A stretch of DNA of 64,000 nucleotides from a virus. Lineage: Duplodnaviria > Heunggongvirae > Uroviricota > Caudoviricetes. Position 1 is the stretch's first letter; every line of letters begins with the position of its first letter. The notes below the pieces were generated by a model that was not told the origin of the DNA, searched no databases, and saw only the letters and a program-made list of their open reading frames with translations. The stretch is taken from the IMG/VR virus record IMGVR_UViG_3300021255_002129; one strand, written 5' to 3'. Shown in pieces: positions 6,947 through 64,000 of this stretch. The translations under genes were made by a program, and so were the position numbers.

Positions 6947-6952
6947 ATATTT

Positions 6953-7552: not shown

Positions 7553-7567
7553 AAAAAGGTGATGTAA

Positions 7568-8500: not shown

Positions 8501-8501
8501 T

Positions 8502-8530: not shown

Positions 8531-8560
8531 ATAATTAGAAAATGAAAGGAGAAAAATAAT

Positions 8561-9199: not shown

Positions 9200-9212
9200 G
9201 GAGGGAAATAAT

Positions 9213-33768: not shown

Positions 33769-33770
33769 AA

Positions 33771-35140: not shown

Positions 35141-35143
35141 AGT

Positions 35144-36762: not shown

Positions 36763-36801
36763 AAAAAAAGAGGTGGATTAATTTCCACCTCTTTTTTATT
36801 T
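36762..36801. terminator. bidirectional rho-independent terminator at the early/late convergence point
   Basis: A7-AGAGGTGGA-TTAATT-TCCACCTCT-T6ATTTTTATT: a perfect 9-bp stem flanked by an A-tract and a T-tract. Confidence 0.8.
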
Positions 36802-36804
36802 TTA

Positions 36805-37380
36805 TTATAATTCAGCTACAGTTTTTACATTAGTTAAATTAGAAAATTTACTTGTTATCCATCTTTTTGCATTATCATCTGCAACAATTATTTTACAATC
36901 ACTAGGTACGCTATTAAACATTCCAGTATATGAAGTAACATTACCAAAATTAAAATTGCGAATATCTAATAATGTTAATCTTTCACAATTTGCAAACATA
37001 TAGCTCATATCCGTAACCCTATTAGTATTAAAATTACTTAAATCTAAATTAATAATATGATTACAAGCATAGAACATATATCTCATATTATTAACATTTT
37101 CTGTATTAAAAGTACTTACATTTAAACTTGCTAAAACATCACAGTAATAAAACATTTGTGCCATAGTTGTCATTTTAGAAGTATCTAATGCAGCCAATTC
37201 AGGATTTAAGTCTCCTCCCTTATATTCCCTAAAAGATATAAATCTTGGAGAGTATGTAGTAGTAATACTATCAATAGCTTCACTCATATCTTCTGGTTTA
37301 TATTTAGTTGTATTTCCTTTTTTGCCACGAATACTATTTGCAATATTAGTTAAGTATTCTTTAGTTACTAATACTTTCAT
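36805..37380 (-). CDS. DUF285 (BspA/'Mycoplasma-type') repeat protein
   Basis: Tandem ~25-aa repeats such as 'NFNTNRVTDMSYMFANC' and 'NMRYMFYACNHIINLDLSNF' are characteristic of PF03382. Confidence 0.6.
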   Translation of the reverse strand: MKVLVTKEYLTNIANSIRGKKGNTTKYKPEDMSEAIDSITTTYSPRFISFREYKGGDLNPELAALDTSKMTTMAQMFYYCDVLASLNVSTFNTENVNNMRYMFYACNHIINLDLSNFNTNRVTDMSYMFANCERLTLLDIRNFNFGNVTSYTGMFNSVPSDCKIIVADDNAKRWITSKFSNLTNVKTVAEL

Positions 37381-48800: not shown

Positions 48801-49024
48801 GTTAACATAATTTCACAAGGATATTTGCTTTTATCTAATACAGATAAATTGGTATTTTGATTAACAACTGTTACTTGTGCATTTTTTATATCATTTAAAC
48901 TATTATATAAAGAAATAGAGAAATATACTCTACAAGTATTTTTTTGTATATCACTACTTCCTACTAAAAACGCAGGCATGTAGGTATCCACAACTGGTGG
49001 ATATAAATTAATATTAACTGCCAT
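45861..49024 (-). CDS. very large tail/baseplate structural protein (~1054 aa, Dit-like position) with at least five in-frame TGA
   Basis: Track ORFs 48593..49024, 48077..48490, 46904..47998, 46481..46822 and 45959..46177 all share a frame and are each bounded by TGA. Gaps read without TAA/TAG. An internal repeat 'KSKEQWPEQYTAS'/'KSREQWPDEATAS' is present. Confidence 0.5.
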
Positions 49025-49055
49025 ATCATCTCTCTCCTTTTTCTCTTAATCTTTA

Positions 49056-49508
49056 TTACTTATTTTCTTCTTTTTTATGAATTACTGATACTATTGGTAA
49101 TACTCTTATATCTTTCATAAAACCATCTATAAAAGTATTTCCGTTTTCTTCTTTATAATGTTTGTATCTAGCTTCTATACATTGAAGATTATAGTCATCA
49201 ATATAACCTAAATCATAACAAAAATAATGATGTTTTTCAGTAATCCAAGCTTTAATATCGTCTTTATCTGACTCTATTAAAACACTAATTGATTTAGCCA
49301 TTTTATCAATTTGTTTATTATGTGATTCTAACGTATCTATCATCTTTTGATGTAATTCTTCTACCGATTGTTGCTTACTTGTTGTTTTTGTTATTCTATT
49401 TTTTGCTCAATCATAAAAATCAACAACACCCTTAATAGCAAATGCTAACATTACAACAAAAATAGCTATATCAGTTAATGAATAATTTTTAAGTAAATCT
49501 AACATTCT
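49056..49508 (-). CDS. N-terminally membrane-anchored protein (150 aa), one TGA; possible lysis-associated protein
   Basis: Strong RBS GGAAGGAGATATAGA, then ATG. TM segment 'IAIFVVMLAFAIKGVV', then 'DFYDW(TGA)AKN...', in frame with track ORF 49056..49343. Confidence 0.45.
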
Positions 49509-49589
49509 ATATCTCCTTCCTATATAATTCTCATAATTCTATCTAATAATATATAAAAGTTACAGAAGAAAGATTAGATAAATTAGACC

Positions 49590-49630
49590 AAAATAAAAAA
49601 GATACTTTGCTTTATAAAGCAAAGTATCTA
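49590..49630 (-). terminator. rho-independent terminator (minus strand)
   Basis: GATACTTTGC...GCAAAGTATC hairpin with a flanking A/T tract. Confidence 0.6.
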
Positions 49631-49648
49631 TTATTTATAAAAATATTT

Positions 49649-49867
49649 TTAATTATTACTTTCTTCTAATGCTTCTAACCTTTCAATTATATTTTTTAAT
49701 TGTTCAGCAATACTACCATCTCTATCTACATTAATATCTCCAATAGTATCTTGTAAATCTTTACCATTTTTCATATCAACATCTTTAGCATCAACTGAAA
49801 TAGTATAAGTTTCTTCACTAACTGAACCGTCTGGATTTTTTATCTTAACAGTTTTAATTTTATCCAT
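49649..49867 (-). CDS. 72-aa protein consisting of the receptor-binding-protein N-terminal anchor module plus a short coiled coil
   Basis: 'MDKIKTVKIKNPDGSVSEETYTI' matches the N-termini of the 52379..54190 and 54889..57066 products. Confidence 0.4.
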   Translation of the reverse strand: MDKIKTVKIKNPDGSVSEETYTISVDAKDVDMKNGKDLQDTIGDINVDRDGSIAEQLKNIIERLEALEESNN

Positions 49868-49943
49868 AAATTAAACCTCCTTTTACGTCTTTGTTTCTAA
49901 TACTATGTGAAAAAGGATTAATTAAGATGGGTTATTTTTGACC

Positions 49944-49976
49944 AAAATAAAAAAGAGGAGTATTTAGTTACTCCTC
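49944..49976 (-). terminator. rho-independent terminator after the holin gene
   Basis: GAGGAGTA-TTTAGT-TACTCCTC with a flanking A/T tract. Confidence 0.6.
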
Positions 49977-50393
49977 ATCATCTTTAACTTCCCAAGTAAT
50001 GACTTCAGTGTCTGAACTAATATTTGCTAAATCTACAACTCCTTGAATTGCTTTCTTTCCTTGTGCCACAATAGTTGCAGTGACTACACCTAATACTGCA
50101 ACACTTGATAATGTATTAAGTAATTCGCTTGATAATAATATTACTCCAAATGCACTTGTAATCATTTTATTAATAAATGGTAACATAGTAAATGCAACAG
50201 CAACAAACACTGAGCATACATAAAACGCTAATATTTTTGTAATACCTTTAATCATTTTCTTTCCATTAAAAGTTTCTTTTCCTGACCAAATATTAATTAA
50301 TGTTCCAGTTACAATATTAACAATAGCAAGAATAGCTAATGCAATACCTAACCATCCCATTATTTGTAAAGTTTTTAAAATTGCTTCTACCAT
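49968..50393 (-). CDS. holin (multi-TM)
   Basis: 141 aa with three or four predicted TM helices and a charged C-terminus, located next to the endolysin. Confidence 0.6.
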   Translation of the reverse strand: MVEAILKTLQIMGWLGIALAILAIVNIVTGTLINIWSGKETFNGKKMIKGITKILAFYVCSVFVAVAFTMLPFINKMITSAFGVILLSSELLNTLSSVAVLGVVTATIVAQGKKAIQGVVDLANISSDTEVITWEVKDDEE

Positions 50394-50767
50394 AATATCA
50401 TGCGGCGGTCGTCGGTCTTAGAACTTTTAGTCTTGCTCTTACGCATGCCTGATCGGCTCCCGCGCCTCCTTTCCTTATTGTTTCCGCACTCTCCACCTTT
50501 AGTGCAATTATAACCAAAAAGTGGAATATTACTTTTGTAATAACCTATTAAATATTTTTCTAACCTAACAGCTTGCTCTTGTGTCAATCCACTAGATATT
50601 ACAATGTGTTTAATGTTTTTTCAGCCATATTTTTTAATAGGTTTATAGACTAACTGGCCTTTATAGCCTCGCCCATTTTTCCATCTAGACTCAGGTTTTT
50701 GGCCAGTTAATCCAATATATCGTTTCCCATTAGGGAAAATTAATTCATATACACAATAATTATGCAT
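50387..50767 (-). CDS. GIY-YIG homing-endonuclease-like protein inserted between endolysin and holin; at least one in-frame TGA
   Basis: 'VYELIFPNGKRYIGLTGQKPESRWKNGRGY' is a GIY-YIG motif and '...LEKYLIGYYKS...FGYNCTKGG' is I-TevI-like. The ATG overlaps the endolysin TAA, and the TAG stop overlaps the holin start. The C-terminal basic tail is encoded by an anomalously GC-rich patch (~50400-50480). Confidence 0.55.
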
Positions 50768-51945
50768 TATAGTTTTTGTAGACTTGATGCTGGGTAGAAT
50801 CCTGTAGTTCCAGATCCATTTCCAACTTGATATGGATAAGGTCTTCCATCCCAAATTCTTAAAATTTGTCTAGTCCATCCAATACCATATGCAGTATTAC
50901 TTCCACCATAAGAACTTCCATTACCAGTTCCTATAATCTTAACTTTATCTCCTACTTGTAATCCAGTTGGTTGTGGTGTAGGTTGTGGAGCAGGTTCATC
51001 ATATTTTTTAATTGAACTTTGATCCATCCATCCTAAGTCTCCTGTTGTATTATATGGATGCGCGCTTCCTGGGTTTTTTCTTGTAATATAAGTAACTTTA
51101 TTACTTACACTTCCTGCAGGACTAGCTGCATTAGAATTAACATATAGAGGTCCATTGATTATTACATGGTCTCCAATATTAAATGCATCACTTGGACCTG
51201 GAGTAGGTGTAGGGGCAGGACTTCCGCCATCTATTAATTTTTGAACGTCATCTGGTAAATATATAAAACATCTAAAGTAATAATTACTTGAACATCCCCA
51301 TCTACCATTATTATTTGTTCTAATTTGGTTCCAGAATATTGTGCTTGAGCCCCATCCAGATTCAGATGTATAAACTTGATTATTACTATCTACTCTTTCA
51401 ACGATTGCTACATGACCAGCGCCTGAGTTTCCCCAGCACATAATTGCTCCACGTTTTGGGGTTGAACCAGTTTTAAGCCCCGCTGTCTCCGCTCTTTCTT
51501 TAAAATTAATAGCATTGCAATTTAAAGTTTTATAAGTACATCCGCTTGTATCTCTTGCAATATTTATAATTTCATTAAATCTACCACTTGCATAACCTAC
51601 GCAGTTTGCTAATGCATTTGCTGGTGCATATAATGGATTACCTTTGATACAAGTATTCCATCCACCAGAACCTGTAACTATAAAGTTTTTGTTATTAGCA
51701 GGTCTGCTAATTCTCATTATAAAACCCGCAGCACCTATACCTTCAGGTTCATCTGCGTTAAGGTTTTCAATTTCATAATGCTCATCCGCATCATTTAATT
51801 CTTCAGGTGTGTCTGTGTTAAATAAATATTGAACATTTTCGTCATCAATATCATCTCTTAAAAAAGCTTTAGCAACCATAGTTTGCACTTCTGTAGGTGC
51901 CATTTCCACTCTTTTAATTCTTTCTTCACTTGATAATTGTGCCAT
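50767..51945 (-). CDS. endolysin: CHAP-domain peptidoglycan hydrolase with two C-terminal SH3b-like cell-wall-binding domains
   Basis: CHAP catalytic Cys 'ANCVGYASGRF' and His 'GAGHVAIVERVD'. A Pro/Thr linker 'PAPTPTPGP' precedes two SH3b-like repeats ('GDHVIINGPLYV...', 'LQVGDKVKIIGTGNG...'). Confidence 0.8.
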   Translation of the reverse strand: MAQLSSEERIKRVEMAPTEVQTMVAKAFLRDDIDDENVQYLFNTDTPEELNDADEHYEIENLNADEPEGIGAAGFIMRISRPANNKNFIVTGSGGWNTCIKGNPLYAPANALANCVGYASGRFNEIINIARDTSGCTYKTLNCNAINFKERAETAGLKTGSTPKRGAIMCWGNSGAGHVAIVERVDSNNQVYTSESGWGSSTIFWNQIRTNNNGRWGCSSNYYFRCFIYLPDDVQKLIDGGSPAPTPTPGPSDAFNIGDHVIINGPLYVNSNAASPAGSVSNKVTYITRKNPGSAHPYNTTGDLGWMDQSSIKKYDEPAPQPTPQPTGLQVGDKVKIIGTGNGSSYGGSNTAYGIGWTRQILRIWDGRPYPYQVGNGSGTTGFYPASSLQKL

Positions 51946-52029
51946 AGATTTTTACCTCCTTTATATAATTTGTAAAAAATAAAAACAACAATTAAAATAT
52001 TATCTTTCTCTTAATTATTTTTGAAATTT

Positions 52030-52060
52030 TAATTAAAATTATTATATATTTTAGCCCAAA
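52030..52060 (-). promoter_or_regulatory. candidate late promoter element (minus strand GGGCTAAAATATATAAT)
   Basis: One of three near-identical TTTTGGGYWAAAWATAWATAAT elements found just downstream of minus-strand terminators. Confidence 0.3.
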
Positions 52061-52378
52061 AAAAAAGAAGCAAAAACAATTTTACTTTTCCTTTTATTAT
52101 AGTAATTCTAGAATCTAACTTATTTTGTTCTTCTTTCGCATATTTTATCTTAATAATAAGTTTTTCTGTAGATATAGCTGTAGTATTAACTCTATCAAAT
52201 GTTTTTTAAGTCCTTTACATTGTTTTTTAATCATCAAATTTATGTCTAAAAGTTTTTCTTTCATATTTTGTGACATTCTTTACTCTTTCTTTTTTTATTA
52301 ACTATTATACAAAATATTTATTAGCAATAGTTGGTAAAGTTTTAATAGTTTTTATTTTGCTTCTTTTTTAAATATTAA

Positions 52379-54190
52379 TTAGGATGTTGTTTTTTGTATT
52401 GTAACACTTGCCAAGATATTACCCGATTCTATACTTTCAGCAGACGGAAATCGTTTTCTATATGAAAAAATAGGCACATTCGATGAATCTATACTTATAT
52501 TAGTGTTAACATCATTTGTTAAAGCATTATTTCCTACTTGTGCATATAAATCGTATACGTCTATAGATGAGTCATTACTAAAAGTAATAGTTCTTTTTTT
52601 AACCATTACAAAAGTCCACGTTCTAATATATGAATTGTATTTGTCAATTACTTCAATTGTGTTTGAATTGCGAATTTTTATTGTTGCATCAAAAACTATT
52701 CCATTTCTGATTCTTATTATTGGCGAATTTAAAGTAGTAGAAAGTATAAAACTACATAAATAATAATACGAATTTAAATCAAACGTTTGTCCACTATAAT
52801 ATGGTGTTATTTCAGAATTATTATTTAACTGTAAACAATATGCTGGATCATCATAATTAACTAAATTATTAGTATTATTAAATTTATTATTGGACAAATG
52901 AATATTATCATTAGCTATCATATATCTATAATCACTAGCATGATTAAATCTTATAAAAGCACAATCACCTTTTAAAGCTGAATTAAACTTACTATTTGTA
53001 ATTGAAATATATGCTTGTTTTCTTTCTCCAATATAAATTGCTGAAGTTTCACTATTTTCACTAAATGCATCATAATAATACACACAACAATTTGTTAAAA
53101 AGTAGTTTCCATTATCATTATCAAATTCAAAACCTCTAGCATAAGTATCAGCATAACAATTTGAAAGAACAGCACTCCCTTGTGTAAACAAAAAACCAAT
53201 AGTCGTATTTTTTAAATCATCTGTAGATTGGCTATTATATAAAGCTGTACAATGAATATCATCAAACGTTTGAAAACCACCTGTCATTTTAATACCAATC
53301 TGACATCCATCAATTCTTATATGAACTATTTCATTATCATAAGAGTCAATCTTAATAGCTGTTCCTTGATTACTATCTTTTCTAAAAAAATCACAATATG
53401 ATACTTTTACATCACCACTTGTATAACGTTGGTTAAGAGATAAATACAACCCAAAATCTTCTATATTTTTAAATACTGTTTTTGCTAATTGCACTAGTTG
53501 TCTACCACTGTCTATTACCATACCTTTTGATACATTAGAACAATCAATAATACCGCCTTCAACAAAAATAACATTATTAGCCTTTGTTCTACTATAAGTT
53601 CCTTTAGTATCATCTAAGCCAATTTCAATCAATGTCTCTAGTTTTTCATTAGAAATATTTTTAATTAGTGCATTTTCATCTAGTTTAAGATTTACACCAT
53701 AATTATTAGCTTGATAAACTATAATTTTATTTGTTATTCCATAGTCTCCTTTTGGGAAATAAATTGTCTTTAGAGGGTTCTCATCAATAGCTTTTTGAAT
53801 GGCTTGTATATCATCATGTATTCCATCGCCATAAGCACCATATTGTTTAATATTAATAAAATCTTCAGCAATCAATGTAGCATATTTATCATTGCTTAAT
53901 ACTTCTTGATAATCAGTTTCACTTTTTTCATCAGTTATCTTATATGTAGCTCCACCACCATCATTAATCTCATAATATCCAAGCGTTACTACCATATCTC
54001 CAACTTTTAATTTCGTATCAGCTTTCATGTCTGCAACACTGTTATAATAATAAGGTTTTTTATTCAACTTTAATTGAACAGACTCACCATCACTAGTCGA
54101 TACATTCTGAGCTTCTGCTCCAATAGGAATATAATCAGTAAAAGTGCCATCTTGTTTTTTTATTTTAATTTTCTTAAATAAATCTGCCAT
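52379..54190 (-). CDS. tailspike/receptor-binding protein with pectate-lyase-superfamily (right-handed beta-helix) depolymerase domain
   Basis: 'IKQYGAYGDGIHDDIQAIQKAID' is the hallmark motif of PF12708. The N-terminal anchor 'MADLFKKIKIKKQDGTFTDYIPI' is shared with the other fibre proteins. Confidence 0.7.
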   Translation of the reverse strand: MADLFKKIKIKKQDGTFTDYIPIGAEAQNVSTSDGESVQLKLNKKPYYYNSVADMKADTKLKVGDMVVTLGYYEINDGGGATYKITDEKSETDYQEVLSNDKYATLIAEDFINIKQYGAYGDGIHDDIQAIQKAIDENPLKTIYFPKGDYGITNKIIVYQANNYGVNLKLDENALIKNISNEKLETLIEIGLDDTKGTYSRTKANNVIFVEGGIIDCSNVSKGMVIDSGRQLVQLAKTVFKNIEDFGLYLSLNQRYTSGDVKVSYCDFFRKDSNQGTAIKIDSYDNEIVHIRIDGCQIGIKMTGGFQTFDDIHCTALYNSQSTDDLKNTTIGFLFTQGSAVLSNCYADTYARGFEFDNDNGNYFLTNCCVYYYDAFSENSETSAIYIGERKQAYISITNSKFNSALKGDCAFIRFNHASDYRYMIANDNIHLSNNKFNNTNNLVNYDDPAYCLQLNNNSEITPYYSGQTFDLNSYYYLCSFILSTTLNSPIIRIRNGIVFDATIKIRNSNTIEVIDKYNSYIRTWTFVMVKKRTITFSNDSSIDVYDLYAQVGNNALTNDVNTNISIDSSNVPIFSYRKRFPSAESIESGNILASVTIQKTTS

Positions 54191-54327
54191 AAAGCGCGTC
54201 TCCTTTCATTCTTTTAAATTAAAACTAATGTATAATAAAATTATATATACTATAATTCATTCTTTCTAATTCTATTTAAATATTGATTAAAATAAATGAG
54301 TTGTTTTTGTCCAACCAATGTTTAAAC

Positions 54328-54370
54328 AAAATAAAAAAGACTGCGGCAATCACAGTCTTTTTTATTTTTA
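54328..54370. terminator. bidirectional-looking rho-independent terminator
   Basis: AAGACTG-CGGCAATCA-CAGTCTT with an A-tract 5' and a T-tract 3'. Confidence 0.5.
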
Positions 54371-54392
54371 TATACTTTATTTCAATAGTAAA

Positions 54393-54870
54393 ATTATCTC
54401 TTGCTAAATGCCCATCTTTCTATAACTATATTTACAGCCTCATATAGCGACTTTCTAACACATCTAAAGGAATTTATATTAGCTATATTAGAAAGTGTTG
54501 TAAAAGGGCTATGATTATCTATTGTACTATTCAAATGGTCTAAAACATCATTACAATTTTTATCTACAACAGAACTATCTGCAATTAAGTAGTTCTTATT
54601 ATCATAAAATACATGATATGCTCTAACTTTTATTTTACTTTTAGTTTTTTCTGGATTAGATAATCTAAAAGCTTGTCCACCTTGTGGGTAGCAGCAACTA
54701 TTATATTTCCCTGTACTAAATCATTTACATATTCAAGTCCAGTTTCTAAATCTAAATAGTATGTTCCATTATCTTCTTTATGAATTTTAAGCTTCAGTCG
54801 GAATTATTATTTTATCTCCATTTGATGAAAACAACTTGTCTGTTGAATTAAATAATTTAATCTTAAATTA
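54393..54870 (-). pseudogene. disrupted small gene downstream of the M14 fibre gene (possible fibre-assembly chaperone remnant or -1 frameshift site)
   Basis: Two protein-like minus-strand frames abut at an A6 run (~54640-54660) and there is no clean start (ATG-GAG-ATA-AAA-TAA-TAA). The downstream frame ends with '...VNIVIERWAFSKR*'. Confidence 0.3.
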
Positions 54871-54888
54871 AATAGTTTAAATATAAAA

Positions 54889-57066
54889 TTAGTCAATAAC
54901 ACTAACTTCATTAAATTTATAATCATTCTCACAAATATACTTATTCTTTATAATAACATTTTCAAGTAATGAAACAACTGTTGTTATTGCAATTTTCCTC
55001 ATGTCATCTCTACTTCCTGTATAATCATCACCAGACGTTGTAGCAAGTTCAATTAAAAAACCATGCAAATTCATAACACCACTATACCATTCATCAAAAG
55101 AACCATGAAACTCACCAGTTTTCTTTAAAGTAAAGCAATTTTGGTTATTTGTATATTCTGTTTTTAACCAATCAAAATTAGAACGCATTTGTGAATTTAA
55201 GGCTTTAATGGTAGAATAACCAATATCCAAATCTGATTTAAAGCCACTTGCAAAATATCCAATAACACCACCAGCAGTCAAAGAAGCTGTTGAATGTCTA
55301 TTAATAACTAAGAATATTTTATCTTTGTTGTTACGAATATAGTCACATAATATTTGAGTTTCAATTTCACTTTCAGGATATTGTCCTGAAGAATTGTATT
55401 CATTATCACTATATACCCAATTTGCATTGAAATTTCTATTAATATTCACATTATTTCCATTATTTCTTATATGGTGTTCATAACCATATGGGTTTATTGT
55501 TGGTATTACTTCAAATATGACATTATCAAATAAATTCTTTAAAGCATCATTTGTACCATAATTGTCCAATATGTCTTTAAACATCATATAGTCATCTAAT
55601 GCAATAGTTTCTTCATTACCATGCATTGAACCAACATATAGAATTGTTAATTTTTGTTTTGGTATCTGTTGTAATGCTATATTTTCATTGTGTGAATTAA
55701 TAGTGTATTTTCTTATTTCTAGGTTATCTGTAGTAGTCCCAAGAACTGTTTTAGTAATAAATGATGAATAAGTATTTAGTAACCCATCCCATAAATCATA
55801 TAATGTTGATAATTTATTTGTAGTATAATATGGAACAATTGCCTGATTAAAATTATATTTAGAAAATTGAGAGCAAATTTCTATAATTTTACTTATATTA
55901 TTATTTTCAGGATTAATTATATATTTATCATAGTATAAATTTAATGTCATATGATTTAATGCATTATTTACTCTTTTGGCATTAAAATTTTCAGATGATG
56001 AACCATCATCGATTGAAAATCTAATATAACAATCTTGATTAATGATGAATTTATCTATTCCATATGTTCTATAATCTATTAAATACGATGAATCTTTATC
56101 ACTAAAAGTACAAATATTAAATTGAACATTGCCATCACTACTAATTGATGAACCTTTTAACACTTTAATATAATCAATTGTTCTAAAACGTGATGGGAAT
56201 GTATTATTAATTCCTGTTGATGAAATTTGACCCTGTTCAAAATTTGAATATGATAAATTATGTTTATTATACAAATTATCATTAATATTTTGTATTCTGT
56301 TCTCTATGTCTGTATTTTTTGATTCTTCTAATAAATTTAATGTTATATGAGATAAAGCTGAGTCTACTCTTTCTTCATTAAATGTTTCAGATGAGCTACC
56401 ATCATTAATTGAAAATCTAATATAACAGTTTTGAGAAACAATGTAAATGTTTGTTGAAAATGTTCTATACTCTAACAAAGAGCTTGTATTTTTATCACTA
56501 AAAGTACAAATATTAAATTGAACATTGCCATCTGTTTCAATAGAAGTTCCTTTAAGCACTTTAATATAATCTTTAGTTCTAAATCGTGATGGAAATGTTG
56601 TGTTTATTCCAGAAGAACTTATTTGACCTTGTTCAAATTTTGAATATGATAAATTATACTTATTATACGAATTATCAATAATATTTTGTATTTTTTTATC
56701 GTCTTCATTTAATCTTTCATTAATTTCTTCATAATCGCTACTTGCTTGATAAAGTCCACCATCTACCCAAGTTGTACCATTGTAATAATACCAATGACCA
56801 TCAATAGTTAAAACATAAACTCTTGTTGTATCAGTCATTTTACTTATTGAATTTGCTACTAATGGGCTTCCACTTGCTAAGCTATTTATTTGATTTTGTA
56901 AACTATTGATACTAGAATTAACATTTATAACATTAGCTTTATTATTTAATTCATTAGTCAATGTATTTCCATTAACATCGACATGGTCACTATCAACAGC
57001 TAATGGAATACTATCACTATATGAACCATCTTTATTTTCTAATTTAACATATTTTAATTTATCCAT
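54889..57066 (-). CDS. tail fibre with internal duplicated domain and C-terminal M14 zinc-carboxypeptidase-like domain
   Basis: Shared N-terminal anchor 'MDKLKYVKLENKDGSYSDSIPL'. Two ~120-aa repeats are ~70% identical ('NLSYSKFEQGQISSSGINTTFPSRFRT...' and 'NLSYSNFEQGQISSTGINNTFPSRFRT...'). M14 motifs 'SMHGNEET' (HxxE), 'NPYG', 'NRNF' and 'INRHS' are present. Confidence 0.7.
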   Translation of the reverse strand: MDKLKYVKLENKDGSYSDSIPLAVDSDHVDVNGNTLTNELNNKANVINVNSSINSLQNQINSLASGSPLVANSISKMTDTTRVYVLTIDGHWYYYNGTTWVDGGLYQASSDYEEINERLNEDDKKIQNIIDNSYNKYNLSYSKFEQGQISSSGINTTFPSRFRTKDYIKVLKGTSIETDGNVQFNICTFSDKNTSSLLEYRTFSTNIYIVSQNCYIRFSINDGSSSETFNEERVDSALSHITLNLLEESKNTDIENRIQNINDNLYNKHNLSYSNFEQGQISSTGINNTFPSRFRTIDYIKVLKGSSISSDGNVQFNICTFSDKDSSYLIDYRTYGIDKFIINQDCYIRFSIDDGSSSENFNAKRVNNALNHMTLNLYYDKYIINPENNNISKIIEICSQFSKYNFNQAIVPYYTTNKLSTLYDLWDGLLNTYSSFITKTVLGTTTDNLEIRKYTINSHNENIALQQIPKQKLTILYVGSMHGNEETIALDDYMMFKDILDNYGTNDALKNLFDNVIFEVIPTINPYGYEHHIRNNGNNVNINRNFNANWVYSDNEYNSSGQYPESEIETQILCDYIRNNKDKIFLVINRHSTASLTAGGVIGYFASGFKSDLDIGYSTIKALNSQMRSNFDWLKTEYTNNQNCFTLKKTGEFHGSFDEWYSGVMNLHGFLIELATTSGDDYTGSRDDMRKIAITTVVSLLENVIIKNKYICENDYKFNEVSVID

Positions 57067-57121
57067 TAAAATCTTCTCTCCTTTCTTAAGATTGAGATTA
57101 TATATCTCATTTCTAAATCTA

Positions 57122-57163
57122 TATCAAAAGAAGGGACAAATAATTATCTTATTTTGTCCCTTC
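57122..57163 (-). terminator. rho-independent terminator (minus strand)
   Basis: Perfect 11-bp stem GAAGGGACAAA/TTTGTCCCTTC flanked by an A/T tract. Confidence 0.6.
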
Positions 57164-57406
57164 TTCATTAATACTTGCGGCAACCGACTCTTCGGTTTTA
57201 GAATTAGATTCTTCATTTGTTTGGCTAGCTTTCAATTCTTTTTTAGCCATTTCTGCACGTTCTATATCTTCTTTTTTACAAAATTCAAAATATTGTTGTT
57301 CAATTTCTGTCATTATACTTTTCATAATAAAATATATTGCATCTATTGATATTCCACTTTCATTTAAATCCTGTACAATTTTTTGTTCTAAATCTCTAAA
57401 TATCAT
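57149..57406 (-). CDS. hypothetical protein (85 aa)
   Basis: RBS AAAGGAGTAAAAAG, then ATG. True TAA stop. Confidence 0.45.
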   Translation of the reverse strand: MIFRDLEQKIVQDLNESGISIDAIYFIMKSIMTEIEQQYFEFCKKEDIERAEMAKKELKASQTNEESNSKTEESVAASINEEGTK

Positions 57407-57425: not shown

Positions 57426-60400
57426 CTAATAATCTTTAACCGCAACAAGAATTCCATTTGTAAAACGTAATCCAATAACACTATTATCTGTTTTTCTAAT
57501 AATAATTTCATTTGTTGCTTGGCCAGTCTCTCCAGAAGAAGTATGTAAATTTCCAATATTATACAATCCATTTCCATTCATTTGAATAGCTCCTCTAACA
57601 TTTAAACCAGATACTTTTGGATGATTAGTTTCTATTCCCATTTCAAGATAATATTCTCCCTTATGAATACTAATACTTCCACCTGTAATAGTAGCTCCTC
57701 CAACAGTACCTCCATTAATACTAGAACCACTAATATTTCCACTAAACTGTCCATTACTAGCATGAAGAGTTCCATTACTTTCAATTCTAAAACGAGTACC
57801 ATAATTAATTAAATCAGCAGTCCCTTGTGACCATCCACCATTATCTATTCTAATATTTTTAAAGTGGGCGTTTCCTGCTGCATTAATCTCTCAATTTGGT
57901 CCTTTAAGAGTTCCATTTGCAGAGATATGTGTATTTCCATTATTGCTTTGTAATTCAGTTCCATTAATAGTTCATCCACCTATTTGACCGCTAGACGAAT
58001 ATAAAGCCCCATCTTTATCAACAGCAAATTTATTGTTAATAGCTAAATTTAAGTTATCTCTATTAGTTCCATTAATAGTTCTACTAAATAATCCATTATT
58101 ACTTGAAAATCTAATATTTGCAGAACTACTTTTTGTTCCCGTATAAATTGAATCATCATCAATATTAAACCCAGCTAAAGTACCTCCGCCTTTTGCAGTT
58201 AGATGTCCATCTTTATCAACTTTAAAATTACCATTTCCTCATTCAATTAATGGCGTAGTTAAATCAATTAACATTCCTTGATTATTTTTATTTCCAACGC
58301 CATAATTTAAAGGTTTTCCACTATCATCATAATTTTTTCAATAAGCGCTACTATATAACATAGCTTTTTCTGCGGCGGGGTCTAAAATAATTTGACCTGG
58401 GCCATGTTTACCAAATATTGCAGATCCATCTTCTGCATTTAAGAACATTGTACGTTCACCAAAATTATATCCAAACATACCAATATCTTTTTTATTTTTA
58501 CCAGCTTCTTTAACACTACCCATTAACATACCAGTAAAACTATTATCTGCTTCTTTTTGACCTGCACCAACTTGTGGAGCTAATATAACTCCATTACCAT
58601 TTTTATCTATGCTAACACTATTACCATCTCATCCGTTAATAGCTGCATTTCCATATTTATTTAATAATAAATGAATTGGTATATGAATTCTAGCAACTTC
58701 ATTTGCACTCTTATCTATTATGATACATTCAAGAGCATTAGTTACACACTCACCATCAAAATCATCTATTGGTTTATATGATTTTGTATTCCTTGCTGCG
58801 GGAATATCACCTCTTGAATATTCTTTTAAGAATTCTTTATTTATCCAACTTCTATTAACTGAGTCATATATTCTTCCTCGAATATTCCAATCATAATTAA
58901 CTCCATTAGTTTTAGTTAATACGCTGATATCTTCAGTGATATTATTTATTACTTTCGTTACTTTTAATTCAAAAGGCTTTGAATTATCATATTGCGGCTT
59001 GCGGCCATCTGCACTATAAGTCGCATATCTAAATCCTGTGTCTTCAACTAATGAAACTCCATATCCGCTTACCGCAGTTGCAGTTATAACAGGCATTGTA
59101 GCATAATATTCAATATTATCATAAGTAATTATAACTTTAACAATATTAGCAGGTGAATTAACACCTTTATATCCGCTATAACTAAATGTTCCATTATCTG
59201 TAACACCTAAACTAGTTTCATCATAAACATTGCTTGTGTATTTATTTTGTAAAATAGTTCATTTAACATTTGCAGTTTTTCCTTCAGTAGTATTACCACT
59301 TGAACTACCATCAAATATTTTTTCTCCACTATGCCATAATTGAGCATTAAACCATTTATTATTTTGTCTTGGAGTATAATTAATATTTCCATTTAATATC
59401 ATTGGATATCCAAAACCAGTGTTTTGAGTATTAGGAACTATTTTACATACGAATTCAGTTCCATTAGTTCCTGGTTCTCCTTCTTTAACAAAAGTAAAAT
59501 CAGTTTCCGCAACTAAATTCATATCTTTATAATCAACCGTTAATTTAATTTTATTATTGTTCTTTTTAATATCATACTTATCTCTAATTGTATATTGAAG
59601 ATACATTTCTCCTTCAACTGTTTTATAATCATCTTGAACAATCCAATCATAGCTATCAGGAACTTTTAGCATCGTATCTTCAAGAGGAACTGTTCAACTA
59701 AACTTACATTTATCTATAATATCATCTGCTAAAGCATTACCTAAATTATCATAAACTGTAAAACTTAATGGTAATATAACTTGAGGATTATCTAAACTAT
59801 CACTTACAGGTGATATACCAGCCTCATCGTATTTAAAAGTTTGTGTTCCATTATTTATAATTAAAGTATAAGCATCTTTTTTATCTAAATCATTTCTAAT
59901 AACAATAGAAGCAGTTCCAATATATATTCCATTGTGGTAAACTGAACATTTATAAGTACTAAAATTAGTTATTGTATTCACTTGTAAATGATGTATTTTT
60001 CTACCTTCTACTCTCATTATTTTATCATATCTATTTATAATTGTCAAGTATTGATTTAATTGTCCTTGACTTGCTGCGGCCATAGCTCTTTCTGCAGCAA
60101 TGTCAGCTTTAAGTTGCGTATAACCGACAACTGCATTGTTATATTCTGTATTATCTTCAGTGGTTTCCGTCAAAGCATAGAAATTATTATTATTATCTAT
60201 TTCAACTCATTGATAAGTATATTCATTACTAGTTGACTCTTGACCATTAATTTTACAAGTTAATGTAGGATTTCCAATATCATAATAGAATTGTTCGCCC
60301 TTATCGCTTTCAATACTAATCTCATAATTAGATGAATAATTAGTAACAGTAATAACCCTACTTAATTGAATATTATTATAAATAACAACACATTTATATT

Positions 60401-61559
60401 TAGTTTCTTTTGCTTCGCTATCGCTTTTCTTTACAATATATTTAAAATCTGCGGGAATCCATTCTACTACAGGTGCAGTTCCAGCAGATGCGTTTTTAAT
60501 TACGTTCTTTTGATTTAAACATTTCCATCCTTGTCCGCCATAAGCATTAAAATCTTCACTTAAACTAGTTACACCATTGTTTTCAACAAACCAATAATAT
60601 GGTAATCTTTGACTATCAGGATTAATATATTTACCTTTAACTCTTACTTGTGCCATTAATGTTCTAGTTGCACTAGGTAAATCATTTTCATCAAAATAAA
60701 CTCCTTGTGGAGTAACAAAACTTAAACTACATGACTCTAGGTCTACTGCACTTAAAGCCTGACTTCCGCATATTTCAAAATCTTTAATAAATATATCATT
60801 AAGTTTTGTTTCATCTTGATTTGGAAAATCATAACAGAATAGAGATATTTTATTTATATATTGAAAATTAACACCATCTATATCAAATATTCCAACTTGT
60901 CTTTTGAAATTAGGTATTTTATATGGATTACCTTCGAATTGATTAACATCAAGAGCATAATTTCTAGTAACTAATTCTTCACTAGCATTATCTTTAAAAA
61001 CCATTTCATATAAAATTCCGTAGTTTCCTCTAAATTGTTGTTCAGTAGGTAAGCTAGTTTTTATTGTAGCTGCTAAAAGTATTGATGTAGATGACTTTAT
61101 ATATTCGTTTATACTTTTTAGGTTAAGTCTTAAATTATTAGCAGAACTGCTATTTCTATCATATATTACATATTCATTAGTAGTTTTATATGAACATAAT
61201 TCATATTGGTTATTACTTTCTACACAGTTATTACCAATTATTTCAAAAGCCTCTTCACCTTCTGCGGCAACCGCATAATTCTTTCCTAATCGACTTACCG
61301 CACCTAGAATAGTTTTATCCCTACTCATATCATTATTAGGAATTAAAACATAGACTTCAGAGCCATTCATATAACTGATTTCAGAACTACCTGAATATGC
61401 ATAAAAATTACTATCTTGATATTGGACTTTGTATTTACCAATAGTTGGGTCTTCACAGTTAATAATCTTAGCTTGAACTGTCTTATCATATCCAGCATTT
61501 TTAACTCTTTGGTTTACAATAGTTTCAATAGCATCAAGTATTTGGTTTTCATATTTCAC
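57426..61559 (-). CDS. giant tail-tip structural protein (~1377 aa) with a C-terminal Gly/Asn-rich fibre-like repeat region; at least five in-frame TGA
   Basis: Six track ORFs (60207..61559, 59694..60173, 59259..59672, 58629..59096, 58338..58529, 57426..57641) share one frame and are each separated by a TGA. The gaps were translated by hand without TAA/TAG. Start is 'MKYENQILDAIE' after AAGGAG; stop is TAG at 57426. Confidence 0.5.
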
Positions 61560-61599
61560 TCCTTGTCATCTCCTTTTCTCTCTAAATTTCTTATTTTTT

Positions 61600-61640: not shown

Positions 61641-61673
61641 ATAAAAAAGAAGGTAACCTTCCGATTACCTTCT
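61638..61673 (-). terminator. rho-independent terminator overlapping the tape-measure stop codon
   Basis: GAAGGTAA...TTACCTTC hairpin with a flanking A/T tract. Confidence 0.5.
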
Positions 61674-64000
61674 GTTAGCTCTCATACTAGCCATATTAAC
61701 TAAGTTGTTTAGAGCTTCTTCTATTTCTCTTGAGTCTTTTACGTTAGGGAATTGAGCATCAATGTGAACATTTTGTTCTAATACATCTCCACCAACTTCA
61801 GTACCTAATCCTCCTGCGGTTGCCGCAGCAAGTTTTCCTAACACTGAACTTCCTAACATATTAGTTATATTTCTCATAATACTAATAGCATTTAACATAT
61901 TAGCAGTATCTTCTTTATTTAATACTAATTCCTTTTGATGTAATAGAGCTAGGCGACCATCACTTCCCCATTCGCCTGTGTATCCACCAGTATCATATCC
62001 AGATAATTGAGATTTCTTAACCCATCCAAGGTCTCTATATCTACCATCTGCACTATGAATATGAATACCATAAGGATTATTAGTAATTCTATCAACTACT
62101 ATACCATTAGCAACTCCTGAATATTTACTTCCAGTTGGACTAGAACCATAAGAGTCATAATAGTATCTACCAGAATATGTTGCGGTTTCACCTACAACTA
62201 AATTATTGTCTCCACCTAGTGCGGAACCTCCTCCAGCACCAGAGCCAGATGAGTCACTTCCTGAACCTGAACTTCCACTTCCAGATCCAGAACCTCCATT
62301 AGCATTACCGGCTGCTGCAGCAGCTTGTCTTTGTTGTTCTGACCAATATTCATAAGCAGCTTTAGTAGCAGCGATTGCCGCATCCTTAGCAGCATTATAT
62401 TTATTAACCAAATCATCAAGCTGAGCTATAACATTACCAATAGCAGTTAATTCTTGTTCATAACTATTGATTAATTCAGTATTATCACTAATTAATTGTT
62501 GAGTTCTATTGATATTTTCATCAATGCCTTCTCCAATACTTTCAAAATCAATTCTACCAGTATTTTCTAATTCATCTAATCCATCTTCATAATCTTTAGT
62601 TGCATCATGAAGTTGATCAAAGGCGTCTTTACATACTCCTAAGAATCCACCCTCCCCAGCAAACACATCAGTCATATGTTGAACTCCAGATTCCCAATAA
62701 GGTAATAAATCGCCCATTAATACATCTTTTTCTTCATCAGACATATTTTGGAAATTTGCAACATCTATATCATATAATCTAGATAAATCATTAAAAGCTG
62801 ACTCATGTAAATTATTTCTAACAGTTGTATTTTGTTCAGTTAAACCATTTATTAATTGTTCATATTGATTTTGTAATAATAGTTCTCTTTCACTTCTTGC
62901 AACTGGGTCATTGATTTGAGCGGCTTCAGCCATTTTTTCTTGGAATTCAACTCAAACGTCATACATTTGATTTAAGTTATCTTGATATCTTGCTTTATCA
63001 AAGTTATAAAGTGAATTATACATATCATTTAATTCGTCTTGTAATTGACCAATTTGGTCTCCATCCGCAGTATATTCATATCTATAATTACCTTGACTAT
63101 CTCTTCTTAATCTCATTTTAGATTTATTTTGTTGAGCTTCTTGAAGAGCAATTTGTTTTAAAGCAATTTCATATTTTTTATTAGCTCTTTCAATATCATA
63201 TTCAGTTAATTTATCTCTTTCACGTAAATCCGCAAGTTCTTCATCCATAATCTTTTTAAGTTGTCTTTGTGCGGAAATACTATCAGTTTGGTCTAAAGCA
63301 TCTAAATATTTACCTTCAAGTTTTTGAACTTCATATAATGAATTAATTGTATCTAAATATTGGTCTGCATTTTTATTAATTAAATTCCATTCTTCTTCAA
63401 TATATTCAAGTCCTAAATTATCAGTAATTTTATTATTTAAGTTTTGGAATATTAAATTAATTGCATTTAAATATTTATCTTGAAGATTTTGAATTGATTC
63501 TTCAATTAAATCATTCATTGATTGAACTGCATCAGCTCATTTTTCTCTTGCGTTTTCTCATTCATCAGAACCCTCTTCTAAAGTATCTAACTGTTGTCTC
63601 CAGAAATCCGCTTGTTGTCTTTGAAAATCTAATTGACTATTAAAGTTTTGTTGTTGTTTATCATAATATTTAGCTAATTGACTATAAGATTGTTCTCCAT
63701 ATACTAATGATATTACTTCCATATCATGTTCGATTAAATCACTAATCATTTCATATGCTTCAATTTGTTCATCAAATTTCTCTTGAGCCTCATCCATCAT
63801 ATCTATATAAGATTCATGAATTTCTTTTTGAAGTTCAAGCACGTCTGTAAGATTAGACATTAATTCTTCATAATATTTCTTTAAGTCATCTAATGCAGCA
63901 GTTCTATTATCACCATAAACATTAGACCAACCATTAGTATCCATTTGATTTAATTCAGCTAATGTATTATCTACTTGTTTTCTTAATGCTTGAACTATAC
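61665..64000 (-). CDS. tail tape-measure protein, C-terminal ~780 aa (5' end beyond window); at least two in-frame TGA
   Basis: Track ORFs 63558..63944, 62952..63518 and 61665..62933 share a frame and are bounded by TGA. Extensive coiled coil, a Gly/Ser linker 'GSGSGSGSSGSGSDSSGSGAGGG', and a true TAA stop at 61665. Confidence 0.6.

What the first reader, a model, noticed from the sequence alone, without database searches (positions are those of the whole stretch)
57426..61559. A 4.1-kb open frame (about 1377 codons, five or more TGA, no TAA/TAG) directly after the tape-measure gene
Six track ORFs are co-linear in one frame and separated only by TGA codons. The junctions translate smoothly, for example '...EYTYQW(TGA)VEIDNNNNFYALTETTED...'. 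The N-terminus ('...GSEVYVLIPNNDMSRDKTILGAV') resembles baseplate or distal-tail proteins. The C-terminal 450 aa is a Gly/Asn/Ser-rich repeat array ('NGTLHASNGQFSGNISGSSINGGTVGGATITGGSISIH...') typical of fibre shafts. It would be the largest virion protein in the window and would be completely fragmented under the standard code.
Basis: seen in the sequence. Interest (0 to 1): 0.6.

Follow-up and report, generated by a model that had tools for sequence, protein, structure and literature searches.

The report
TGA-recoded giant phage tail gene
This is one 1,377-codon phage tail gene that reads as a single protein only if its eight in-frame TGA "stop" codons are translated as tryptophan, a trick already described for some gut phages and thought to hold back late proteins until the phage changes the cell's genetic code.

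Summary
The gene runs from GTG at 61559 to TAG at 57426-57428. It has 1,377 sense codons, eight in-frame TGA and no TAA or TAG; the other five frames carry 40-194 TAA/TAG.

TGA means tryptophan here. Two standard-code orthologues carry the gene as one uninterrupted ORF with TGG at 8/8 and 6/8 of the window's TGA positions. Close relatives swap TGA and TGG at the same Trp columns. Gene order is conserved: tape measure, this gene, a small ORF, then lysis or tail genes.

In-frame TGA is almost absent from replication genes (2 TGA / 68 TGG) but makes up 8 of 17 Trp codons here. That fits a phage-driven switch to code 4, not a code-4 host. The window has no tRNA. Its nearest relatives encode a Trp-type tRNA with anticodon UCA.

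The protein matches no Pfam, PHROG, NCBIfam or PDB sequence family. Models show an N-terminal helix and OB-fold resembling baseplate central spikes, a carbohydrate-binding-like sandwich, Ig-like domains and a variable fibre-like C-terminus. It is a new member of a known kind ("Agate"-like TGA-recoded phages).

Side lead: the suppressor tRNA carries an extra arm that mimics a tRNA-Trp CCA anticodon loop.

The parts
57426..61559 (-). Complete gene: GTG start, 1,377 sense codons, eight in-frame TGA read as Trp, TAG stop. Product is a large tail-tip / central-fibre-type protein.
61570..61576 (-). Shine-Dalgarno-like AAAGGAG, 10 nt upstream of the GTG start.
   Evidence: Read directly from the sequence. 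The start position agrees with homologues that begin MKYENQ or VKYENQ.
61648..61673 (-). Terminator-like hairpin (11 bp stem followed by a T-run) overlapping the tape measure stop codon and ending 89 nt upstream of the GTG start of this gene.
   Evidence: It is a consensus match only. Five such sites were found in the 5 kb scanned, against 1.2 expected.
60207..60209 (-). In-frame TGA, codon 451. Trp is invariant at this column in homologues.
   Evidence: TGG in L001, L003 and L004; TGA in L209 and L210.
59694..59696 (-). In-frame TGA, codon 622 (Trp column).
   Evidence: TGG in L001, L003 and L209; TGA in L210 and L004.
59259..59261 (-). In-frame TGA, codon 767. Trp is invariant at this column.
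58629..58631 (-). In-frame TGA, codon 977. Trp is invariant, within the motif NAAINGWDGNS of the most conserved region.
58338..58340 (-). In-frame TGA, codon 1074 (Trp column).
   Evidence: TGG in L001; gap in L003.
58239..58241 (-). In-frame TGA, codon 1107 (Trp or Phe column).
   Evidence: TGG in L001 and L210; TTT in L003 and L004.
57972..57974 (-). In-frame TGA, codon 1196, the W of the fibre repeat motif GQIGGWTI.
57891..57893 (-). In-frame TGA, codon 1223 (Trp column; nearly invariant in the 25-sequence alignment).
57426..57428 (-). TAG stop codon. The next gene's AAAGGAG and ATG follow within 20 nt.
61299..61559 (-). aa 1-87: N-terminal alpha-helix (2-22) plus a five-stranded OB-fold (26-87) containing the motif GSEVYVLIPNNDMSRDKTILG. 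Highly conserved. Proposed attachment or plug domain at the tail tip.
60630..61247 (-). aa ~105-310: beta-sandwich (jelly-roll) domain resembling carbohydrate-binding modules.
60174..60602 (-). aa ~320-462: Ig-like beta-sandwich domains.
   Evidence: Boundaries approximate.
60033..60164 (-). aa ~466-509: alpha-helical hairpin (possible coiled-coil or trimerisation element).
   Evidence: Model of orthologue P0031, helices 166-187 and 197-209. Mapped to the window protein with an offset of about +300.
58680..60017 (-). aa ~515-960: chain of beta-sandwich / Ig-like domains.
58170..58697 (-). aa ~955-1130: the most conserved segment of the family (ARIHIPIHLLLNKYGNAAINGWDGNS...ILAPQVGAGQKE.DNSFTG...GQIILDP). 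Beta-rich with no recognisable fold match. It is the only part with a hit in the phage collection.
   Evidence: Invariant columns. tblastn hit to phage phAss-1 at aa 964-1072, 35% identity. Model.
57429..58169 (-). aa ~1131-1377: Gly/Asn/Ser-rich C-terminal region, variable in length, with GxIGGW(T)I repeats. Presumed distal fibre and receptor-binding end.
   Evidence: Alignment length variation from 1,290 to 1,879 aa lies mostly here. Peptidase_S74 is found at this end in 2 of 25 homologues. Short-strand pattern. aa 1291-1377 were not modelled.
61665..63998 (-). Neighbour: C-terminal 777 codons of the tape measure gene. It runs off the window and has 3 in-frame TGA.
   Evidence: Full-length orthologues are 2,620-3,054 aa.
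57149..57406 (-). Neighbour: 85-aa ORF immediately downstream. A small ORF of 58-96 aa occupies this position in all relatives examined. It may be an assembly chaperone, but this is not established.
   Evidence: No family hit.

Best explanation
The region is a single late structural gene of an uncultivated tailed phage. Related contigs are about 105-145 kb, and the window has about 29% G+C.

Shown:
- The gene is on the minus strand, directly after the tape measure gene.
- It is one 1,377-codon frame.
- Its eight UGA codons stand for tryptophan.

Inferred: the UGAs are decoded by a phage-encoded tRNA with anticodon UCA. That tRNA has a tRNA-Trp-type acceptor stem (A1-U72, G2-G5 paired with C68-C71, discriminator G73). 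It is present in the nearest relatives next to an ordinary tRNA-Trp(CCA). It lies outside this 64-kb window.

Inferred, following the published model for alternatively coded phages: replication genes almost never use UGA, so they can be translated under the host's standard code. This gene and other late genes become translatable only once the suppressor tRNA has accumulated. Recoding would then act as a translational lock on late proteins.

Inferred from gene position, predicted folds and the conservation pattern: the product is a multi-domain tail-tip protein. Its conserved N-terminal helix and OB-fold would anchor it at the distal end of the tail next to the tape measure. A carbohydrate-binding-like sandwich and a run of Ig-like domains follow. 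A conserved beta-rich core leads into a variable, repeat-rich C-terminal fibre that most likely contacts the host surface.
For: Single frame: eight TGA, nine TGG, no TAA/TAG in 1,377 codons. The other five frames have 40-194 TAA/TAG. P is about 1e-44.

TGA = Trp:
- Orthologue L001 (54% identity) has 0 TGA and TGG at 8/8 of the window's TGA columns.
- L003 (47% identity) has 0 TGA and TGG at 6/8 columns, with one gap and one Phe.
- The close relatives L209 and L210 are recoded too, and they exchange TGA and TGG at the same columns.
- Four of the eight positions are invariant Trp in the 25-homologue alignment; three remain invariant and W622 is at least 90% conserved in the 55-sequence alignment.

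One product: 624 homologues, many of 1,300-1,760 aa. The order tape measure, this gene, small ORF is conserved in five loci.

Code switch rather than a uniform code:
- TGA makes up 2/70 Trp codons in eleven replication and nucleotide-metabolism genes, against 8/17 here (Fisher p = 1.5e-5).
- About 26 of 64 ORFs carry an in-frame TGA. That is within the 26-71% reported for recoded phages of standard-code hosts, against about 90% for phages of code-25 hosts (preprint 10.1101/2021.08.26.457843).
- The standard-code sister loci L001 and L003 have no in-frame TGA, and none of their 24 genes ends in TGA.

Suppressor tRNA:
- A 94-97 nt tRNA with anticodon UCA sits beside tRNA-Trp(CCA) in contig IMGVR_UViG_3300037400_002591. 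That contig is 94-97% identical to window 48-9487. The tRNA is also in at least nine other contigs, six of them carrying a gene 83-100% identical to the window's first gene.
- The Rfam tRNA model scores it 60 bits with UCA in the anticodon position.
- Thirteen phage tRNAs with anticodon UCA were shown to insert Trp in a cell-free system (PMC12636597).

Against: No tRNA is found in the window. The suppressor is inferred from relatives, not from this genome.

Recoding does not follow a clean early/late split:
- A glycosyltransferase and RuvC block at 32.8-36.8 kb is the most heavily recoded part of the window (25 TGA / 4 TGG).
- The CHAP endolysin, the pectate-lyase-like fibre and the M14 peptidase have almost no TGA.

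No expression, proteomic or virion data exist.

The host is unknown, so 'standard-code host' is an inference.
Confidence: 0.82

Rival explanations
1. The host itself uses genetic code 4 (for example a Mollicutes-like bacterium or one of the newly reported code-4 Eggerthellaceae). The phage simply shares its host's code, so no code switch occurs and recoding has no regulatory role.
For: In-frame TGA also occurs in non-structural genes (glycosyltransferases, RuvC, a few replication-side ORFs). No gene in the window requires TGA as its stop. The same unusual tRNA(UCA) architecture occurs on contigs binned with code-4 Eggerthellaceae MAGs.
Against: In a 29% G+C genome a free TGA Trp codon should dominate everywhere, yet eleven replication genes use 68 TGG and 2 TGA. 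Only about 40% of ORFs carry an in-frame TGA, against about 90% reported for phages of recoded hosts. Sister phages with the same gene order use no in-frame TGA at all. Relatives carry their own tRNA(UCA) and tRNA-Trp(CCA), which a code-4 host would make unnecessary.
Confidence: 0.1
2. UGA is read through at low efficiency by the host's ordinary tRNA-Trp(CCA) or another near-cognate tRNA, without a dedicated suppressor. Only a small fraction of ribosomes would complete the protein.
For: No tRNA lies in the window. Only 35% of TGA-recoded phage genomes had a detectable suppressor in the published survey.
Against: Eight successive read-through events would leave essentially no full-length product of a structural protein. 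The nearest relatives do encode a tRNA with anticodon UCA.
Confidence: 0.04
3. TGA encodes something other than Trp: glycine (code 25) or selenocysteine.
For: ARAGORN labels the relatives' tRNA 'SeC' because of its UCA anticodon and its length.
Against: Standard-code orthologues have TGG, never GGN or TGY, at these columns. The tRNA has a Trp-type acceptor stem and discriminator and a normal D-arm, unlike the true tRNA-Sec genes found in the same scan.
Confidence: 0.01
4. The region is a decayed pseudogene or a row of separate small genes.
For: Under the standard code it is nine fragments.
Against: No TAA/TAG occurs in 1,377 codons of an AT-rich genome (P about 1e-44). All interruptions are TGA at conserved Trp columns. 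Relatives conserve the full length. Most fragments lack their own start and ribosome-binding site.
Confidence: 0.01

Closest known systems
TGA-to-Trp (code 4) alternatively coded gut phages, especially the 'Agate' clade (Borges et al., preprint 10.1101/2021.08.26.457843)
   Same: Low-GC phage whose related contigs are about 105-145 kb. In-frame TGA aligns to Trp. Recoded and standard-code members are close relatives. Replication genes are essentially unrecoded. The GC-skew pattern indicates bidirectional replication. A heavily recoded tail gene lies just upstream of lysis genes. TGA is not needed as a stop codon.
   Different: Clade membership was not tested. No Agate sequences or terminase tree were available, and the terminase lies outside the window. 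Here the lysis genes themselves are hardly recoded, while a glycosyltransferase/RuvC block is the most recoded part.
crAss-like and Lak phages with TAG (code 15) or TGA recoding of late genes
   Same: The same principle: a stop codon is reassigned in late genes and phage-borne suppressor tRNAs decode it. Code 15 was validated experimentally by metaproteomics (PMC9523058, listed).
   Different: Unrelated lineages with Bacteroidota hosts, mostly TAG to Gln. No sequence similarity to this window.
Central spike proteins of contractile-tail baseplates (T4 gp5 / VgrG OB-fold, P2 gpV, Mu gp45, R2 pyocin spike, P1 gp5)
   Different: No sequence-family match (Phage_base_V or Gp5 domains are absent). 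No C-terminal beta-helix with an apex domain was seen. The protein is 5-8 times longer. A very long tape measure of 2,620-3,054 aa suggests a long, probably non-contractile tail.
Central tail fibre / tip proteins of siphoviruses (lambda gpJ, T5 pb4, Tal proteins of Gram-positive phages)
   Different: No gp27-like hub domains were detected. There is no Dit gene between the tape measure and this gene. No sequence similarity.
Hypothetical protein WIC39565 of phage phAss-1 (OQ749652; 'Caudoviricetes code 15 clade')
   Same: The only hit in the phage collection: 35% identity over aa 964-1072, the family's most conserved core. That genome is also about 136 kb and recoded (PMC10607447).
   Different: phAss-1 recodes TAG, not TGA. 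Its region is annotated under the standard code as many small hypothetical ORFs. No further similarity.

Membership tests
Code-4 (TGA->Trp) alternatively coded phage | In-frame TGA in conserved genes, aligned to Trp (TGG) in standard-code homologues | tested here: met
   TGG at 8/8 (L001) and 6/8 (L003) columns. TGA and TGG swap among close relatives.
Code-4 (TGA->Trp) alternatively coded phage | Recoding is partial: in-frame TGA is frequent in this gene and other tail genes and nearly absent from early replication genes | tested here: met
   2/70 against 8/17 Trp codons, p = 1.5e-5. Other tail genes have 14/25. However, lysis genes have only 2/21, and a glycosyltransferase/RuvC block has 25/29.
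Code-4 (TGA->Trp) alternatively coded phage | Phage-encoded suppressor tRNA with anticodon UCA | tested here: inconclusive
   None in the 64-kb window. Present in the nearest relative contig (94-97% nucleotide identity) and at least nine other viral contigs.
Code-4 (TGA->Trp) alternatively coded phage | TGA not used, or depleted, as a stop codon | tested here: met
   Every ORF on the coding strands can end at TAA or TAG. 0 of 24 genes in the standard-code sister loci stop at TGA. For three or four ORFs whose last TGA lies near the 3' end, a TGA stop cannot be excluded.
Code-4 (TGA->Trp) alternatively coded phage | Host uses the standard code | not testable with these tools
   The host is unknown. 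CHAP, GH25/LysM and Amidase_2 lysins in this phage and its relatives suggest a Gram-positive host.
'Agate' clade (Borges et al.) | Placement in the terminase-based clade | not tested
   The terminase is outside the window and no reference sequences were available.
'Agate' clade (Borges et al.) | Genome about 127-154 kb, bidirectional replication, and standard and TGA-recoded members side by side | tested here: met
   Relatives' contigs are about 105-146 kb. Cumulative GC skew peaks near 36 kb, where transcription converges. Recoded and standard-code orthologous loci both exist. These features are consistent with the clade but not specific to it.
Baseplate central spike (gp5 / gpV / gp45 type) | N-terminal OB-fold of the spike type | tested here: inconclusive
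Baseplate central spike (gp5 / gpV / gp45 type) | C-terminal triple-stranded beta-helix ending in an apex domain | tested here: not met
   The models show a CBM-like sandwich, Ig-like domains and a helical hairpin after the OB-fold.
Siphovirus Tal / lambda gpJ-type tail tip protein | gp27-like hub domains at the N-terminus | tested here: not met
Siphovirus Tal / lambda gpJ-type tail tip protein | Encoded directly downstream of the tape measure gene | tested here: met
Tail fibre or spike with an intramolecular chaperone (Peptidase_S74) | C-terminal Peptidase_S74 domain | tested here: not met
   Absent from the window protein. Present in 2 of 25 homologues scanned and in several listed hits.

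The most novel reading that the evidence does not exclude
The eight UGAs of this gene, and those of its relatives, may be decoded by a previously undescribed kind of suppressor tRNA. It is a tRNA-Trp derivative whose true anticodon is UCA. Its long extra (variable) arm is a 4-7 bp stem with a 7-nt loop, U/C/G-U-CCA-A-A/C, which copies the tRNA-Trp anticodon loop.

If this pseudo-anticodon arm supplies the CCA identity element to the host's TrpRS, the phage could obtain efficient, Trp-specific opal suppression without its own synthetase.

Supporting observations:
- The motif was not imposed by the scan that found 25 such tRNAs.
- It is absent from all 47 other long-arm tRNAs in the same loci.
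- It appears with different, co-varying stems in several lineages, including contigs binned with code-4 Eggerthellaceae MAGs.

Four literature searches and the papers I opened did not describe it.
Probability: 0.3. Interest if true: 0.8.

Novelty: new member of a known kind. Interest (0 to 1): 0.3.

Why it matters
For annotation: under the standard code this 4.1-kb gene falls into nine meaningless ORFs, and the largest complete gene of the window is lost. The neighbouring tape measure and tail genes have the same problem. Any pipeline that handles such contigs needs code-4 or mixed-code gene calling.

For biology: the window adds a clear, comparatively validated example of TGA-to-Trp recoding in a large tail gene. 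Standard-code and recoded orthologues sit side by side, which is useful material for studying how code change begins.

The protein belongs to a large family (624 hits) of completely uncharacterised tail proteins. It is probably the host-recognition device of an abundant group of phages with genomes over 100 kb.

The more interesting consequence concerns the decoding machinery. The relatives' UCA tRNA with a CCA-presenting extra arm, if functional as proposed, would be a new solution to the identity problem of suppressor tRNAs. It would also be a ready-made part for genetic-code engineering.

Tried and rejected
- The + strand as given is not coding.
- Pfam, PHROGs and NCBIfam on the code-4 translation gave no significant family. 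There was only a sub-threshold DUF5513 hit.
- A PDB sequence search with a 25-sequence profile found nothing (best E = 0.41).
- The phage collection (INPHARED) had no nucleotide match for window 40-64 kb. By protein there was only a 109-aa hit to phAss-1.
I worked around this with the first 450 codons, which precede the first TGA, and with orthologue P0031.
- BFVD gave one uncharacterised homologue.
- A profile search with the N-terminal 100 aa, meant to reach Pfam-annotated relatives, returned only short fragments of the same family.
- An exact look-up of the window's first gene found no record.
- tRNA scans of the window and of loci L001-L004 found none.
- The selenocysteine and glycine readings were rejected on codon comparison.
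- The idea that the CCA hairpin is the real anticodon arm was rejected. That would put a 23-nt insertion between the D-arm and the anticodon arm. ARAGORN and the Rfam model both place UCA in the anticodon position.
- The promoter scan was uninformative: 32 sites found against 32.7 expected.
- The bacterial-genome scan for the tRNA pattern returned mostly true tRNA-Sec genes or chance matches in coding DNA. Four hits were Trp-like: two Coriobacteriia contigs, one Oscillospiraceae and one Treponema-binned contig.
Full report
**1. The observation**

The coordinates are right but the strand is the minus strand. The + strand translation is full of stops. The reverse complement of 57426-61559 is one open frame.

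- It begins at GTG 61559-61557, with a stop two codons upstream.
- It has 1,377 sense codons.
- It contains eight in-frame TGA, at codons 451, 622, 767, 977, 1074, 1107, 1196 and 1223.
- It contains nine TGG and no TAA or TAG, and it ends at TAG 57426-57428.

An AAAGGAG lies 10 nt upstream of the GTG. Homologues start at the same residue.

The other five frames of the same stretch contain 40-194 TAA/TAG each. With this base composition, a TAA/TAG-free run of 1,377 codons has a probability of about 1e-44. Under the standard code the gene appears as nine pieces. 'Five or more' TGA is eight.

**2. What TGA means**

A search of 5.8 billion proteins gave 624 homologues, many of them full length at 1,300-1,760 aa. 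I fetched the DNA of five.

- Two have the gene as one ORF with no TGA at all: L001 at 54% identity and L003 at 47% identity.
- At the window's eight TGA columns L001 has TGG eight times. L003 has TGG six times, one gap and one TTT.
- Three others are recoded: L209 with 8 TGA, L210 with 11 and L004 with 24.
- The closest relatives exchange TGA and TGG at the same columns. At codon 622, for example, the window and L210 have TGA and L209 has TGG.
- W451, W622, W767 and W977 are invariant in the 25-homologue alignment; W451, W767 and W977 stay invariant and W622 is at least 90% conserved in the 55-sequence alignment.

So TGA is a synonym of TGG here. Glycine, selenocysteine and pseudogene readings are excluded.

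**3. Genomic context**

The window has about 29% G+C. Genes lie on the + strand up to about 36.7 kb and on the minus strand beyond, and cumulative GC skew peaks there.

The + strand half encodes topoisomerase subunits, a ligase, DnaB, primase, RecJ-like and RecD-like proteins, a PolIII-alpha-like polymerase and NrdD. The ligase, helicase and primase assignments are read from the translations. The polymerase and NrdD were confirmed by PHROGs.

The minus strand half encodes, in order:
- the tape measure C-terminus;
- this gene;
- an 85-aa ORF;
- an M14 peptidase;
- a pectate-lyase-like fibre;
- a CHAP endolysin;
- membrane proteins;
- two large tail proteins of 1,052 and 685 aa, one of them matching phrog_1887 'tail protein'.

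The order tape measure (2,620-3,054 aa), this gene, small ORF is conserved in all five relatives. In L003 the homologues of the 1,052-aa and 685-aa tail proteins follow without an intervening lysis cassette. This gene is therefore the first gene of the tail-tip module.

A terminator-like hairpin (11 bp stem plus a T-run) sits between the tape measure stop and this gene.

**4. Code switch or code-4 host?**

- Eleven replication and nucleotide-metabolism genes use 68 TGG and 2 TGA. This gene uses 9 TGG and 8 TGA (Fisher p = 1.5e-5). The two other large tail genes use 11 TGG and 14 TGA. A glycosyltransferase/RuvC block uses 4 TGG and 25 TGA.
- About 26 of 64 ORFs have an in-frame TGA.
- In an AT-rich genome whose host read TGA as Trp, TGA should dominate everywhere. 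It does not.
- Standard-code sister phages exist that neither contain in-frame TGA nor stop at TGA.

This is the pattern published for alternatively coded gut phages, particularly the 'Agate' clade. Its published features are:
- genomes of about 127 kb;
- TGA-recoded and standard-code members with more than 90% ANI;
- bidirectional replication;
- unrecoded replication genes;

I could not test clade membership. The early/late split is not clean here, because the lysis genes are hardly recoded.

**5. The decoder**

The window has no tRNA. Using the window's first gene as an anchor I fetched 80 related viral loci, on contigs up to about 178 kb. Several have tRNA arrays 7-10 kb upstream of that gene.

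Following these arrays, I found a tRNA with anticodon UCA next to a normal tRNA-Trp(CCA). A pattern scan then found it in ten contigs. One is IMGVR_UViG_3300037400_002591, which is 94-97% identical to window 48-9487.

Its acceptor stem (A1-U72, G2-G5 paired with C68-C71) and discriminator G73 are the identity set described for bacterial tRNA-Trp (PMC9976931). Phage tRNAs with anticodon UCA insert Trp in vitro (PMC12636597). A phage-borne opal suppressor is therefore the most likely decoder. For this particular genome that remains an inference.

**6. The protein**

There is no match in Pfam, PHROGs, NCBIfam or PDB sequences.

AlphaFold on aa 1-450, with 55 homologues as the alignment, gave pLDDT 86. 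The model shows:
- a helix at aa 2-22;
- a five-stranded OB-fold at aa 26-87;
- a jelly-roll sandwich at about aa 105-310;
- Ig-like domains from about aa 320.

- ribosomal S17 and IF1 OB-folds at similar Z.

The spike resemblance is therefore suggestive, not proven. There is no Dit-like match.

Conservation is highest at the N-terminus and in the 955-1130 core. The C-terminus varies in length and repeat number, and it ends in a Peptidase_S74 chaperone domain in some homologues.

Together with the gene's position, this is the anatomy of a tail-tip or central-fibre protein: a conserved virion-proximal end and a variable receptor-proximal end. I put that assignment at about 0.6. The single-product, Trp reading I put at 0.95 or higher.

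**7. Side finding: the suppressor tRNA's extra arm**

The UCA tRNA is 93-97 nt long because its variable region is a hairpin whose 7-nt loop reads CUCCAAA, the anticodon loop of tRNA-Trp(CCA).

To remove the bias of my first pattern, I rescanned with the UCA arm alone.
- Among the UCA tRNAs recovered across the related and tRNA-scan loci, 35 distinct ones were 84 nt or longer.
- 25 of these are Trp-like and carry Y-CCA-A in the extra-arm loop, on different stems with compensatory changes.
- The other 10 are genuine tRNA-Sec-like genes without the motif.
- None of 47 Leu, Ser or Tyr long-arm tRNAs in the same loci has the motif.

The Rfam tRNA model places UCA in the anticodon position and the hairpin as a 23-nt insertion in the variable region. 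RNAalifold recovers the four canonical arms with covariation.

The same architecture occurs on contigs binned with code-4 Eggerthellaceae MAGs. The preprint describing those MAGs does not mention it. Four literature searches did not find it described (and the papers read in 75, 76, 81).

One obvious hypothesis is that the arm presents the CCA identity element to TrpRS while UCA reads the codon. Whether the geometry allows this is unknown.

**8. Verdict**

The observation and the main interpretation are correct. The phenomenon is already known, and this is a new, well-supported member. The protein family is uncharacterised. The tRNA architecture is the part that deserves follow-up.

Noticed in passing
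L089:290-385 (+), L085:533-629 (-), L091:8971-9066, L092:1638-1733, L095:1856-1951, L097:2161-2256 and others. Not in the window.: Relatives of this phage encode a 93-97 nt Trp-type tRNA with anticodon UCA. Its long variable arm is a hairpin whose 7-nt loop (CUCCAAA or GUCCAAA) copies the tRNA-Trp CCA anticodon loop. It usually lies next to a normal tRNA-Trp(CCA). The motif recurs on different, co-varying stems in 25 of 35 long UCA tRNAs and in none of 47 other long-arm tRNAs.
   Followed up: partly
L221 (JAUNQF010000023.1) and L211 (JAZUHG010000038.1): The same UCA tRNA with a GUCCAAA extra-arm loop occurs on contigs binned with Coriobacteriia / Phoenicibacter MAGs. JAUNQF01 is a genus placeholder in the Eggerthellaceae group recently reported to read UGA as Trp. 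Whether these short contigs are bacterial or phage-derived is unknown.
   Followed up: partly
L085:5530-5937 (-), L009:781-1189, L051:1345-1752, L086:4121-4529, L091:987-1411: Related phage contigs encode a tmRNA inside their tRNA arrays (Rfam RF00023, 90.6 bits; tag peptide ANKVKSLFSFNRVSFA). This is notable in phages that manipulate stop-codon reading.
   Followed up: no
L095:138-214 (-), L097:3898-3974 (+): Two relatives that carry the UCA tRNA also carry a tRNA with anticodon CUA, an amber-suppressor type that ARAGORN calls 'Pyl'.
   Followed up: no
window 32824-36762 (+): A block of five genes has the highest TGA share of Trp codons in the window: 25 TGA against 4 TGG. Three match glycosyltransferase families, one has no family hit, and the last is a RuvC-like resolvase. 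The share is higher than in the tail genes, so recoding is not confined to virion and lysis genes.
   Followed up: partly
window 49056-54190 (-) and 54889-57066 (-): The putative lysis and host-surface genes are almost unrecoded: 2 TGA against 19 TGG for the CHAP endolysin, small membrane proteins and pectate-lyase-like fibre, and 0 against 6 for the M14 peptidase. The published model stresses recoding of lysis genes, so this is unexpected.
   Followed up: no
window 54889-57066 (-): A 725-aa protein has a C-terminal M14 zinc carboxypeptidase domain (2.4e-23). It is preceded by two copies of a repeat of about 160 aa (…YNKYNLSYSKFEQGQISSSGINTTFPSRFRT…). It sits in the tail/lysis module and may be a virion-associated cell-wall peptidase.
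   Followed up: no
window 61648-61673 (-): A strong terminator-like hairpin (11 bp stem plus a T-run) overlaps the tape measure stop codon, ahead of the recoded gene. It suggests a separate or attenuated transcription unit.
   Followed up: no
window about 34000-37000: The cumulative GC skew maximum coincides with the point where + strand and minus strand genes converge. This fits a replication terminus in a bidirectionally replicating genome.
   Followed up: no
L001, L003, L209, L210 compared with window 49000-57400: The cargo between this gene and the next conserved tail genes differs in every relative. Examples are GH25-LysM or Amidase_2 or CHAP lysins, GDSL lipase, GH16, GH43, pectate-lyase fibres and GIY-YIG endonucleases. 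L003 has no lysis cassette there. The region is a hot spot for module exchange.
   Followed up: no
window 31295-32743 (+): A 482-aa protein with an N-terminal membrane anchor and a long Ala/Glu/Lys-rich coiled-coil region contains no Trp codon at all, neither TGG nor TGA. Its only family hit is weak (phrog_200 'lipoprotein').
   Followed up: no
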